Source of the DNA: Octopus sinensis
Lineage: Eukaryota
Length of the DNA stretch: 64,000 bases
Direction of reading: 5' to 3'
NCBI RefSeq assembly: GCF_006345805.1
Contig: NC_043024.1
Location: 12,028,001 to 12,092,000 of the forward strand
Position 1 is the first letter of the stretch. Each line of letters opens with the position of its first letter. The position numbers are program-made. This document shows, in pieces, positions 42,494-45,900 of this stretch.

Positions 42494-42938
42494 GAGTGTG
42501 TGTGTGTGTGTGTGTTTGTGTGTATGTGTGTACAAACATGCGCAGATGCATACAGGTGCAGAAAAGCATACACGCATACATACATACATACATACATACA
42601 CCAATAGAAAAAAAAACTAGCGTTGTTCGTAGATTTCGGTTTATTCTGGCAACCAACTGAAGACGGTGTACACCGAAGTCGTGTATACAGAGCAGGAATA
42701 CCAGAGTATTGGAATAAAAAAAGAACAAACGAACAAAAAAGGCTTAACTCGGTGGGAACAACAACAACGACAACAACAACGGTAAAAAAAAAAACGAAGA
42801 AGAAAAAAGGGGGAAAAAAGAATAGAAAAAGAAGCAAATAGTTGAATCGGAAAAATGTTCTTACCACTAGTTTCTTTTGGACTAACAGGTATGTACGTAT
42901 GCACACACACACCCACACACACACACGACTTTGTGTGT

Positions 42939-42982
<44 letters not shown>

Positions 42983-45900
42983 GCATGGTCGGGTCGTCGG
43001 CGACTAAACCGGCAACCCCACCAAGCTTGCTTGGTGAGGAGGGTGTTTATTGGACACCCTGCGGAATGAAAAGCAAAACCCGTCAAGGGCGGAGGAACTC
43101 TTGAGAGTCAACGGCCATCCAATAAATGCCTTAAGGATGTATCATGCGCGGGGACATAGAAATAATCGGACTGAATACCCGATCGCGCGGTTAAACCATT
43201 GGGAGTGAAGGACTCCAAGCCTTTGTTAGGGCATCCTTCTAGGAGAAGGTAACTCAGGTAACTGGGATAACTCCGACATAAAACCTGCGGCTCAGTGGTT
43301 ACCGATGATGTTGACTTGTTCTTCTTTTCGGATTATGGCGGCTGTTGCTTAGTGACTCAGTGCACAGCCTTTCCTCACTTAAAAAAAAAATCTTCTTGCA
43401 CAGGCATTGCACGATAACAACATTGATTAAGCTTCGTGCAATGGCCATACTCGGTAACGAGGGGGCAGTCACCATATATATATACATACACACACATACC
43501 TATATACATATACATATATATATTTGCCATCTCAATATGGCTAACCACTAAGGGTGGATGTTACAGTAACTTGTAGCTCCAGGAGAACATCGTCTCCAGC
43601 TGGCTTTAGGCTCACTTTCTGTGCCCTAAGGTATTTGCAAAGGGAGGTCATACTTCCCTCGTCAACCTAAGTGATACGCACGGACTGTAGAGATATATTA
43701 TTGCTTATATATATATATATAATATATATATATATATATACATATGTATGTATCATACAGGAACATGTATCATACATCAAAATGAAGCCGGTCCTCTGTG
43801 GATCACATCCTTACTTCTCAACATAGTCACCGTTTCTCTCAATAGCAATTTTCCACCTTCGAATGAGAGCATGTATCCCTGCCCCGTAAAATTCTGTTGA
43901 CTGTTCTTTGAGCCACTTCTTCACTACAGTTTTCACTTCCTCGTCACTGGAATAATGCTTGCCTTTCAAACCCTCTTTCATGGGGCCGAAGAGATGATAG
44001 TCTGAAGGCGCTAAATTATTCCAGTGATGAGGAAGTGGAAACTGTAGTGAAGAAGTGGCTCAAAGAACAGTCAACAGAATTTTACGGGGCAGGGATACAT
44101 GCTCTCATTCGAAGGTGGAACATTGCTATTGAGAGAAACGGTGACTATGTTGAGAAGTAGGGATGTGATCCACAGAGGACCAGCTTCATTTTGATGTATG
44201 ATACATGTTTTTGTGTTGGTAATTATACTTGTCCTAGACAAAATGGTATTACTTTTTGACCCACCTTCGTATTAGTTTCACGCTCGGTAAAAAGAGAGCT
44301 TTTGACGTTTCGAAGACTTGTGGGTGTATGTGAGTGTAGATAGATAGGTACGGAGATCTAGAGAGACAGATGTATTGATATCTATGTAAATCGATTCATA
44401 TTGAAACCACATCTTCCCGTCTTTCTCTCTCACTTTCTGTCTTTCTTTCTTTCATTCTTTCTTTTTTTTTTCAGGTCTATTCGGAAACACAGCCGAGATG
44501 AATTACATCGAATTGGCTATGATAATGACGTTGGTGCTGCTGCATGTGGGGCTTGCCACCATTGTTATAATGCGGAGGGTCAAGTTGCAGGAGGACAGGA
44601 GTGAGAGAAAGAGAGCGGGAGAGGCAGCGGGAGAGGCAGCGGGGGGAGCTTAGGAAGTTCCCTGGAATTGAGTGCCTTTGCAATCAAATCACTCACACCT
44701 GCACAAAGAATCGAAACACCTTCACGCATCCATGTATCGATCCTTGGTCAATGCACACACTCAAAGAGAACGATAATCAGGATATTTGCACAAGATATTT
44801 TCGGTTTATGCCTTTGAACCACTTTCTGTATTATCGACACTTATTCTACGCGAAAGCAATATGCAAATTCTAGGCGAAAGCAATATGCAAATTCTACGAA
44901 GAAATGTTGAAGCAATTTAAATCGGCGCCATGTCAAAAACATTTTGCTACGTTTTTTTCAAAGCCTGATCTACGAGTGAATGTCTTGTGATTCGGCAACG
45001 GGATGCAAAGTCTTTCCTGGTACCATTTTAACCTAAAAACAACACGACAATAACCTATTGACATCTGGTCGACACTCACGATATTTCGCTGGTAATTCAC
45101 CGTTTTTCATGCGCCCTTCGTAGCATAAATTGTTAACTGATATTTGAGACTTGAGAACTGGAAACAGAAGGCCAAATCTAAATGACGTCGCTTGACACAC
45201 ATGGCGCTACACGTGACATAGAATAACAAACTTCACAAACCGTCTTCTTGAAAAATGGCAAAAGAAAATGAAAAAAAAATGAAAAAATGAAAAAAACAGA
45301 ACGAAGCAATGAAATACTGGGACAACGTATAGAGTTGGTCAATTTCGCCTGTTCTGCTCGTTTCTGTTCCTGAAAAACTTCTCTGCTTCAAAAGTTAGTT
45401 TATTAATATATTGTAGAGAATGAAATTCTACAATTTCATAACTTCTTTTCGTAGCTTTTGCAATCTTTGTGATTTTATTTTGATATAAATAAAGTTTATA
45501 AAAGCAGATAATTCTAGTTTAGTCCATCCATTAATCTATTCGTCTTTTCGCCCGTTTATTCGAGGGAGGATCGTTGGAGTGGAGTCCTAAAACACTGCCT
45601 CAGTAAGCTTCGACCAGAAGCAATCGTCCTTAGACATTCTGACGGACTTCCAACCGTGGCCACCTGAGATTATGGATATTTTCTGACTATCAGTTTGACG
45701 GTCCCCTAAGTCTCCCTAAGTCTCCTGACGTTTGGCTCAGCTCCAAGAACCCATTCTTTCCTGCAACATTCCAAAAACATGCCCTTAGTACCAGAGGTGT
45801 GGCCTCTAAGTGAGGAGTAGTGGCTCGAGATTCGATACATTCAACGTGACATGACCAAAACCACTAGACGAGCAGTGCTGCACTCGCGATCGCGAGAACG

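What the first reader, a model, noticed from the sequence alone, without database searches (positions are those of the whole stretch)
42855..44653. Candidate undescribed single-pass membrane micropeptide family (complete two-exon 70-aa gene)
Seen: exon 1 MFLPLVSFGLT-G (phase-1 donor) joins exon 2 to give a ~22-residue hydrophobic stretch containing His, followed by RRVK and a charged tail. Exon 2 aligns without gaps to the 61-kb exon (17/58 identical by hand count; both 179 nt; same phase and CAG|GT acceptor). Shared motif YxE-x4-M-x-L-x2-LHV-x3-T-x-V-x2-RRxK, with mostly conservative changes while flanks are not alignable by eye. Known: RRxK after a helix fits the positive-inside rule, and similar-sized single-pass peptides (phospholamban/sarcolipin, FXYD) regulate pumps and channels. 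I do not recognise the family; function is inference.
Basis: partly seen in the sequence, partly recalled or inferred. Interest (0 to 1): 0.85.

Follow-up and report, generated by a model that had tools for sequence, protein, structure and literature searches.

The report
Octopus small membrane peptide gene cluster
A short exon in this octopus window encodes a single membrane-spanning helix, has two older copies nearby and one 74-residue relative elsewhere, and probably belongs to an unnamed family of about 70-residue membrane peptides, though expression is unproven.

Summary
Exon 1 (42855-42888) and exon 2 (44475-44653, 179 nt, phase 1, CAG|GT acceptor) are as described. Identity is 17 of 58 residues, and 0 of 20000 segment-wise shuffles reach it. 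Between the 59-kb and 61-kb copies the helix core is 111/113 nt identical, both changes synonymous, against about 82-84% in the flanks. That argues for purifying selection. A profile search of 1.84 billion proteins found one credible relative, P0001. It is a complete 74-residue ORF whose Met-led hydrophobic leader resembles exon 1. No Pfam family reached its cut-off and no PDB sequence matched.

Caveats: the 5' intron flank is alignable (73-74%). Exon 1 lies in a locally repeated ~420-bp unit that is part of a head-to-head duplication of the whole locus. No transcript, junction or translation data could be checked. The neighbouring SCO-spondin-like gene has a phase-compatible donor, but its annotated orthologues end differently.

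Verdict: probably a real, unnamed, lineage-restricted single-pass micropeptide family. The two-exon architecture is plausible but unproven, and the function is inferred only.

The parts
42855..42888 (+). Candidate exon 1. It holds an ATG, 11 codons of a hydrophobic leader and 1 base, followed by donor CAG|GTATGT (phase 1).
   Evidence: An in-frame TGA lies 12 nt upstream (read). The leader resembles the N-terminus of P0001, ranking 6th of 1612 ATG-started 12-mers in the window. It lies in a locally repeated unit.
42889..44474 (+). Proposed intron of 1586 nt, mostly repeats. A dispersed repeat at 42982-43488 is also found at 8303-8893. A mariner-tail inverted repeat occupies 43757-44214.
   Evidence: (I1: 200-nt arms, 97% complementary).
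44324..44461 (+). Conserved 3' end of the intron, 73-74% identical to the sequence upstream of the 61-kb exon. It includes the polypyrimidine tract.
   Evidence: searches (I14; 138 nt, 73.9%, E 3.6e-7), alignment.
44475..44653 (+). Exon 2, 179 nt, phase 1. It encodes a short outer segment with Y-x-E, a roughly 20-residue helix with central L-H-V, then RRVK, a charged Ala/Gly/Glu tail and a TAG stop.
61136..61314 (-). Older paralogous exon, 179 nt, with the same phase and acceptor and 17/58 residues identical to exon 2. AATAAA lies at 61044-61039, 92 nt after the stop.
59253..59422 (-). Its core is 111/113 nt identical to the 61-kb copy, and its tail has diverged with indels that net to a multiple of three. 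AATAAA lies about 101 nt after the stop.
37875..39315 (-). Three tandem, inverted copies of the exon-1 unit. The ATG, ORF and donor are kept at 39033 and 38525. In the third copy, near 38003, the ATG is lost and there is a 1-nt deletion.
36770..36917 (-). Inverted copy (92.6%) of the intron segment 44289-44434. It is cut off by a mariner fragment (36479-36780) and then the N run 36379-36478, which is where an exon-2 copy would be expected.
   Evidence: The N run was left as it is.

Best explanation
The 44.5-kb exon is the coding, 3'-terminal exon of a small gene for a roughly 70-residue single-pass membrane peptide. The gene belongs to an unnamed family seen so far only as a local cluster in this Octopus window plus one outside relative.

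Proposed working, all inferred:
1. A short hydrophobic, signal-like leader (exon 1) is spliced in phase 1 to exon 2.
2. The peptide inserts with about 10 residues outside, carrying the conserved aromatic-x-Y-x-E segment.
3. A roughly 20-residue helix with an invariant mid-membrane L-H-V spans the bilayer.
4. The invariant RR holds the C-terminal side in the cytoplasm (positive-inside rule), where a variable charged tail of about 22 residues sits.
5. Conservation is concentrated in the helix and its two borders while the tail drifts. The peptide therefore most likely works through helix-helix contact with another membrane protein, as an accessory or regulatory subunit, with the buried His as the key polar contact.

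Shown here: family membership, the single helix, and constraint on the core. Inferred: use of exon 1, topology, partner binding and any physiological role.
For: - Three in-window copies share a gap-free motif: 17/58 identical, and 0 of 20000 segment-wise shuffles reach that score or identity.
- Only this frame is open in all three copies.
- Between the 44-kb and 61-kb copies, codon position 2 is conserved at 29/36, against 19/36 and 20/36 for positions 1 and 3 (Fisher p = 0.011). This is expected if hydrophobicity is selected.
- Between the 59-kb and 61-kb copies the core is 111/113 nt identical, and both changes are synonymous. The 3'UTR is 107/128 and the upstream intron 74/90. P(2 or fewer changes in 113 at the UTR rate) = 4e-7.
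- The exon lengths differ by 9 nt (179 against 170), so the tail indels net to a multiple of three and the stop is kept.
- Both minus-strand copies keep an AATAAA 92-101 nt after the stop, and their homology fades about 20 nt beyond it. That fits a terminal exon.
- The profile search of 1,835,955,588 proteins gave 2 hits at E <= 0.001. The credible one is P0001: E 4.7e-8, and 19/43 identical to exon 2 in pairwise BLASTP at E 3e-11.
- P0001 is a complete 74-residue ORF. A 16-residue Met-led hydrophobic leader is followed by exactly 58 residues that align without gaps.
- At the position of the split codon P0001 has His. His codons start with C, so P0001 cannot be a read-through of an AG|GT acceptor at this position. 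This follows from the genetic code.
- Exon 1 ranks 6th of 1612 ATG-started 12-mers in similarity to that leader, and ranks 2-3 are its own duplicates.
- The head-to-head duplicate carries both the exon-1 unit and the pre-exon-2 intron segment, so the two travel as one unit.
- The AlphaFold2 model of P0001 has one long helix, residues 22-73, with block-mean pLDDT 92-93 over residues 31-50.
Against: - There is no transcript, junction, ribosome or peptide evidence, and none could be sought with these tools.
- No annotated Octopus protein contains the exon, although O. vulgaris and O. bimaculoides proteins are in the collections.
- Exon 1 lies in a unit that is tandemly triplicated on the other arm of the duplication, and one of those copies has lost the ATG and the frame.
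- Short ATG-to-phase-1-donor ORFs are frequent here.
- No exon-1-like leader was found upstream of the 59-kb or 61-kb exons within the window.
- The 44-kb copy has no AATAAA or ATTAAA until 835 nt after its stop.
- The intron flank (73-74%) is better conserved than the exon nucleotides (54% overall, 63% in the first 36 codons) between the old paralogues. A purely protein-level constraint does not explain this.
- The high core identity of the 59-kb and 61-kb copies could partly reflect gene conversion.
- Invariant residues do not cluster significantly on one helix face: 1808 of 20000 shuffles reach the observed moment.
- P0001 comes from an unnamed read-assembly contig, and its nucleotides and origin could not be examined.
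Confidence: 0.55

Rival explanations
1. The helix exon is real and coding, but it is the terminal exon of a different, longer transcript. One candidate is an alternative membrane-anchored isoform of the upstream SCO-spondin-like gene; another is a gene whose first exons lie elsewhere. On this reading the reader's exon 1 is a chance mini-ORF in a repeat.
For: - The cystine-knot exon of the plus-strand SCO-spondin-like gene has a strong donor, GAAA|GTGAGT, at 28653/28654 in phase 1. This matches the phase-1 acceptor at 44475.
- That donor is used in the annotated orthologues, because they do not read through into the window's continuation.
- Exon 1 lies in a repeated unit.
- Mini-ORFs with phase-1 donors are common.
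- The 59-kb and 61-kb exons have no visible first exon in the window.
Against: - Both annotated orthologues, P0003 (O. vulgaris, 97% identical over the exon) and P0004 (O. bimaculoides, 90%), end with one residue (Ile) and a stop after that donor. Joining to 44475 would give Ser and then the helix exon instead.
- A fitting acceptor for that ending lies at 31202, with 16 of 20 pyrimidines and AG|TTTGA.
- No protein of any length in 1.84 billion representatives carries the helix exon behind a long N-terminal part.
- P0001 starts with Met only 16 residues before the homologous region.
Confidence: 0.2
2. The copies are untranscribed or untranslated relics. They would be a duplicated pseudo-exon whose open frame and similarity persist through recent duplication and gene conversion rather than through selection.
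For: - The exon is not in any gene annotation present in the collections searched.
- The surroundings are dense in microsatellites, transposon fragments and segmental duplications.
- The intron flank is as well conserved as the exon, or better.
- The tail of the 44-kb copy contains a short internal tandem duplication that gives the repeated Ala-Gly-Glu-Ala (read).
Against: - The 44-kb copy and the 59/61-kb copies are old: 54% nt identity over the whole exon. They still keep the frame, and the 44-kb and 61-kb copies keep the same 179-nt length and stop position.
- Position-2 conservation is in excess.
- The 59/61-kb core shows 0 non-synonymous and 2 synonymous changes, against 16% divergence in the UTR.
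- An independent complete ORF, P0001, at about 33% whole-length identity to the three window exons (31-33%) keeps the same invariant residues.
Confidence: 0.15
3. The exon is part of a mobile element, and its copies reflect transposition.
For: Mariner-tail fragments, a SINE-like repeat and a LINE-like fragment lie close to all copies.
Against: - At nucleotide level, exon 2 matches nothing else in the window apart from the flank homology with the 61-kb copy.
- A six-frame profile search finds only the three copies, and the next best hit has E 0.013.
- No transposon-related Pfam domain was found in it.
- The repeats around the copies differ from copy to copy.
Confidence: 0.05

Closest known systems
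FXYD family (phospholemman, the Na,K-ATPase gamma subunit; Pfam PF02038)
   Same: Similar size. The layout is the same: a short outer segment with a conserved aromatic/acidic motif just before a single helix, then a cluster of basic residues and a cytoplasmic tail. Some FXYD members have a cleaved leader (recalled). This is the best analogy for how the peptide may work.
   Different: No match to PF02038 was listed for any of the 4 sequences at E <= 1 (the tool's filters drop most matches above about 0.1). The motif is Y-x-E, not F-x-Y-D. There is an invariant mid-helix His in place of the conserved glycines (recalled). It is not a member.
SERCA-regulating micropeptides (phospholamban, sarcolipin, myoregulin, DWORF, insect sarcolamban)
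   Same: They are single-helix peptides under 100 residues whose conservation lies in the helix and which act by binding a pump within the membrane.
   Different: Those are tail-anchored, with the helix at the C-terminal end (recalled). Here the helix is followed by RRxK and about 22 more residues, which implies the opposite orientation. No Pfam match was found.
Pneumovirus small hydrophobic protein (Pfam PF03579, SHP), a His-bearing oligomeric pore
   Same: It is a small single-helix protein with a His in the helix. This is the only Pfam model that touches the family: the 61-kb exon scores 19.2 bits at E 0.00099, and 2 of 4 scanned members match at E <= 1.
   Different: The score is below the curated cut-off of 27 bits. 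P0001 and the 44-kb exon do not match. The opposite membrane orientation is expected (recalled for SH). Homology between an octopus gene and a vertebrate virus gene is implausible. I treat the match as chance.
SCO-spondin (the neighbouring gene)
   Same: Its last large exon has a phase-1 donor that is compatible with the helix exon.
   Different: The annotated Octopus SCO-spondin proteins end one residue after that donor and have no helix exon.

Membership tests
FXYD (PF02038) | Significant match to the family profile | tested here: not met
   hmmscan of exon 2 and the 61-kb exon at E <= 0.1, and of all 4 aligned members at E <= 1, listed no PF02038 match.
FXYD (PF02038) | F-x-Y-D motif directly before the helix | tested here: not met
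   The aligned family has Y-x-E with a variable preceding residue. There is no F-x-Y-D.
Phospholamban / sarcolipin type regulins | Tail-anchored layout, with the helix at the extreme C-terminus, and a match to the family profiles | tested here: not met
   The helix is followed by RRxK and about 22 residues. No Pfam match was found.
Pneumovirus SH protein (PF03579) | Score at or above the Pfam gathering cut-off of 27 bits | tested here: not met
   19.2 bits for the 61-kb exon. 2 of 4 scanned members match at E <= 1; these are the 59-kb and 61-kb exons, which are near-identical in the core.
SCO-spondin gene (as its terminal exon) | Splice phase compatible with the preceding exon | tested here: met
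   Donor at 28653/28654 is phase 1 and the acceptor at 44474/44475 is phase 1.
SCO-spondin gene (as its terminal exon) | Annotated orthologous proteins carry the helix exon at their C-terminus | tested here: not met
   P0003 and P0004 end with one residue and a stop after the cystine-knot exon. No long protein matched the exon profile.
smORF-encoded single-pass membrane micropeptides (generic kind) | Complete ORF under 100 codons with one predicted membrane helix | tested here: met
   P0001 is a 74-residue complete ORF. By count, the window model is 11 codons, 1 split codon and 58 codons. The Kyte-Doolittle 19-residue maxima are 2.5-3.1, and AlphaFold2 gives a single long helix.
smORF-encoded single-pass membrane micropeptides (generic kind) | Evidence of transcription, splicing and translation | not testable with these tools
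   No cephalopod transcriptome, read or proteome collection was available.
Transposon-borne ORF | Exon embedded in a repeated element or carrying transposon domains | tested here: not met
   Shown for the window only. Genome-wide copy number was not testable.

The most novel reading that the evidence does not exclude
Octopods carry a lineage-restricted, locally amplified family of roughly 70-74-residue single-pass peptides that are translated. Their invariant mid-membrane His, flanked by Y-x-E outside and RR inside, would let them tune a transporter or channel, or assemble into a small His-lined pore. Such a family would be unrelated in sequence to FXYD, the regulins or any Pfam family.
Probability: 0.3. 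Interest if true: 0.6.

Novelty: new variant of a known kind. Interest (0 to 1): 0.45.

Why it matters
Small membrane peptides are routinely missed by gene annotation. The few that have been studied (FXYD proteins, phospholamban-type regulins) are potent regulators of ion pumps.

This family is absent from the annotated Octopus proteomes held in the collections searched. It would add a cephalopod-specific candidate to that class, and it comes with clear handles for testing:
- an invariant His in the helix;
- a conserved outer Y-x-E;
- a paralogue cluster that allows selection tests.

If it proves untranscribed, it is instead a useful caution about open frames inside segmental duplications.

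Tried and rejected
- **Fused or longer forms.** A search among proteins of 103-2000 residues with exon 2 gave 884 candidates, none at E <= 0.01.
- **More family members.** A near-length search with the 4-sequence profile gave 202 candidates, and only P0001 itself scored.
- **P0002.** This 220-residue repeat protein was the second hit (E 3.9e-5 over 4 stretches). I dropped it as spurious, because BLASTP against the 61-kb exon gives no alignment at E <= 100. It is not counted as a relative anywhere.
- **ESM Atlas.** For P0001 the best score was 0.79 to unnamed clusters, below the level the tool calls a lead. The 61-kb exon had no usable hit.
- **Solved structures.** The PDB sequence search with the profile gave 0 matches at E <= 1.
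- **RNA families.** The Rfam gathering scan of the whole window gave 6 matches, all tRNA and none in the locus. The conserved intron flank is therefore not a known RNA family.
- **Homo-oligomer test.** Four copies of exon 2 were submitted. The tool returned no answer (score 0.01, mark 0.32). This is not evidence either way.
- **One-face test.** A helical-moment test of invariant residues was not significant: 1808 of 20000 shuffles reach the observed moment.
- **Exon-1-like leader upstream of the 59-kb and 61-kb exons.** A regex over six frames hit only the three exon-1 copies. A scan for ATG-to-phase-1-donor mini-ORFs listed 15 and 6 candidates in the two upstream regions, none resembling the leader.
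- **More copies in the window.** The six-frame profile search found only the three copies.
- **Literature.** Two full-text searches returned 2 and 5 papers ('cephalopod' + 'micropeptide'; 'octopus' + 'small open reading frame' + 'transmembrane'). I saw only the listings and abstract starts, and none concerns such a family. The claim that the family is not in print rests on these two searches only. Supplementary files were not consulted.
- **Not checked.** No tool here holds cephalopod genomes, transcriptomes or reads, so junction reads, orthologues in other cephalopods and genome-wide copy number are untested.
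Full report
**Where we are.** The window comes from an Octopus genome. The cystine-knot exon at 28365-28652 is 97% identical to an O. vulgaris protein named SCO-spondin-like (P0003). It is 90% identical to O. bimaculoides SCO-spondin (P0004). The plus strand from 1 to 28653 carries that gene. It begins with a 1402-codon open Pro/Thr/Ser-rich repeat exon that ends in a thrombospondin type 1 repeat. TIL, TSP1 and cystine-knot exons follow. 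The finding lies about 14 kb downstream of it.

**Checking the observation.**
- Exon 1 is as described. An ATG at 42855 is followed by 11 codons and one base, then CAG|GTATGT.
- Exon 2 is as described. It runs 44475-44653, is 179 nt and phase 1, and follows a long T-rich tract with a CAG|GT acceptor. It encodes 58 residues and a TAG stop.
- The 61-kb exon is on the minus strand (61314-61136). It is also 179 nt, with the same acceptor and phase. It aligns without gaps, with 17 of 58 residues identical.
- A six-frame profile search finds these three copies and nothing else. The next best hit has E 0.013.
- The similarity is not explained by a hydrophobic-then-charged layout. I shuffled residues within the N-flank, helix and tail separately, and 0 of 20000 shuffles reached the observed score or identity. 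This held for all three pairs: 44-kb with 61-kb, 44-kb with P0001, and 61-kb with P0001.
- Only the proposed frame is open in all three copies.

- The 5' flanks do align. The last 131-138 nt of the intron are 73-74% identical between the 44-kb and 61-kb copies (I14). This exceeds the exon's nucleotide identity, which is 54% overall and 63% over the first 36 codons. I cannot fully explain this. The segment has stops in all frames, no Rfam match and is partly simple sequence. It may hold splicing signals.
- Exon 1 is not unique. It lies in a ~420-bp unit (42563-42982) that recurs three times in tandem and inverted at 37875-39315, at 89-90% identity. Two of those copies keep the ATG, the ORF and the donor with one mismatch in 40 nt. 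The third has lost the ATG and has a 1-nt deletion.

**Local duplication.** The intron segment 44289-44434 also recurs inverted, at 36917-36770 (92.6%). There it is cut off by a mariner fragment and then by the N run 36379-36478. The whole two-part unit was therefore duplicated head to head around 39.7-42.0 kb. Whether the inverted copy keeps an exon 2 cannot be told, and the N run was left alone.

**Is it coding and constrained?**
- Between the old paralogues (44-kb and 61-kb), codon position 2 is conserved at 29/36. Positions 1 and 3 are conserved at 19/36 and 20/36 (Fisher p = 0.011). This pattern is expected when hydrophobic character is selected.
- Between the younger pair (59-kb and 61-kb), the first 113 nt of the exon, up to RRIKK, differ at 2 sites, both synonymous.
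- In that same pair the 3'UTR is 107/128 identical, the upstream intron 74/90 and the tail 38/48, with 21 gap columns in the tail alignment. The two exons differ by 9 nt in length, so the frame and the stop are kept.
- At the UTR's divergence, 2 or fewer changes in 113 sites has probability 4e-7. Gene conversion restricted to the core cannot be excluded, but the boundaries coincide with the functional segment.
- Both minus-strand copies keep an AATAAA 92-101 nt after the stop, and homology fades about 20 nt beyond it. This fits a terminal exon.
- The 44-kb copy has no canonical signal until 835 nt after its stop.

**Relatives elsewhere.** A profile of the three exons was scored against 1,835,955,588 representative proteins. 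Two had E <= 0.001.
- P0002 is a 220-residue internal-repeat protein. It shows no BLASTP alignment to the 61-kb exon, so I dropped it.
- P0001 has E 4.7e-8, and pairwise it is 19/43 identical to exon 2 at E 3e-11. It is a 74-residue complete ORF from a 1167-nt contig of a read-assembly source.
- P0001 has a 16-residue Met-led hydrophobic leader. Exactly 58 residues follow, and they align without gaps to both window exons. The invariant residues are F, Y-x-E, L, L-H-V, V and R-R.
- At the position of the split codon P0001 has His. His codons begin with C, so the ORF cannot be an intron read-through of an AG|GT acceptor at that spot. This follows from the genetic code. P0001 therefore reflects a spliced message or an intronless gene, which supports a stand-alone peptide of about 70 residues.
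- Its leader resembles exon 1. Exon 1 ranks 6th among 1612 ATG-started, stop-free 12-mers in the window. Ranks 2 and 3 are its own duplicates. That is suggestive rather than decisive.
- Two word-indexed searches added nothing: no longer forms in 103-2000 residues, and no further near-length members.
- O. vulgaris and O. bimaculoides proteins are present in these collections. The family therefore appears to be unannotated there.

**Named families.**
- No Pfam model reaches its cut-off for any of the four sequences.
- The best match is the pneumovirus small hydrophobic protein model, at 19.2 bits against a cut-off of 27. Only the two near-identical minus-strand exons match it.
- Other sub-threshold hits differ from member to member.
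- No PDB sequence matches the profile.
- The ESM Atlas gave no usable lead.
- AlphaFold2 on P0001 with the 4-row alignment gives one long helix, residues 22-73, with block-mean pLDDT 92-93 over residues 31-50.
- Kyte-Doolittle 19-residue maxima are 2.5-3.1.

**The main rival.** The cystine-knot exon has a strong phase-1 donor at 28653/28654, which is compatible with the acceptor at 44475. However, both annotated orthologues end with a single Ile and a stop after that donor. Joining to 44475 would give Ser followed by the helix exon instead. A fitting acceptor, AG|TTTGA behind 16/20 pyrimidines, lies at 31202. Together with P0001's own Met start, this makes a membrane-anchored SCO-spondin isoform unlikely, though not excluded.

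**Mechanism.** Everything beyond the presence of one constrained helix is inference. The basic pair after the helix points to a cytoplasmic tail (positive-inside rule). The short conserved outer segment and the mid-helix His suggest packing against a partner helix, as in FXYD proteins and the pump-regulating micropeptides. Membership in those families was tested and failed (see Membership tests). A test for clustering of invariant residues on one helix face was not significant. A homo-oligomer prediction gave no verdict (reported only under Tried and rejected).

**What was left out.** The exons were treated one by one. No cephalopod genome, transcriptome or read collection was available. Junction use, orthologues, genome-wide copy number and translation therefore remain unchecked.

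**Verdict.**
- A real, constrained, unnamed helix-exon family is likely (about 0.8).
- The specific two-exon 70-residue gene is plausible (about 0.5).
- A regulatory-subunit function is a reasoned guess.
- It is a new sequence family of a known kind of gene. It is of moderate interest and is cheap to test with existing Octopus RNA-seq.

Noticed in passing
window 1-28653 (+), and 31202: A SCO-spondin-like gene. It has a 1402-codon open Pro/Thr/Ser-rich tandem-repeat exon (1-4209) ending in a TSP1 repeat. TIL (14059-14349, 22661-23215), TSP1 (20800-21090, 22166-22444) and cystine-knot (28363-28653) exons follow. The annotated orthologues are far shorter (409 and 1037 residues) and end one residue after the cystine-knot exon. 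The best-fitting final acceptor in the window is at 31202.
   Followed up: partly
window 51387-57722 (-): Five tRNA-Gly(UCC) genes, one per unit of a 1.5-1.66-kb tandem repeat, at 51387, 53050, 54581, 56108 and 57651. The 56108 copy scores much lower in Rfam (33.5 bits). A weaker tRNA-like match lies at 47405-47469.
   Followed up: partly
window 46334-47293: A tandem array of a 110-bp unit, at least 7 registers, with 93-97% identity among the central copies.
   Followed up: no
window 43757-44214; 35155-35372; 36479-36780: Fragments encoding the C-terminal tail of a mariner-type transposase. In the proposed intron they form a 200-nt inverted repeat (97% complementary, 58 nt apart). Similar pieces lie on both sides of the N run. 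A weak Mos1 HTH match (E 0.029) lies at 50458-50778.
   Followed up: partly
window 44324-44461 vs 61317-61446: The last ~135 nt of the intron are better conserved between the old paralogues (73-74%) than the coding exon itself (54-63%). There is no Rfam match and there are stops in all frames. This is unexplained, and could reflect splicing control or simple-sequence convergence.
   Followed up: partly
window 19037-19788: Long His-, Asp- or Ile-rich open frames on both strands over a triplet-repeat tract. This is probably simple sequence and not a gene.
   Followed up: no
window 36379-36478: A run of 100 N lies exactly where the inverted duplicate of the locus would carry its exon 2.
   Followed up: no
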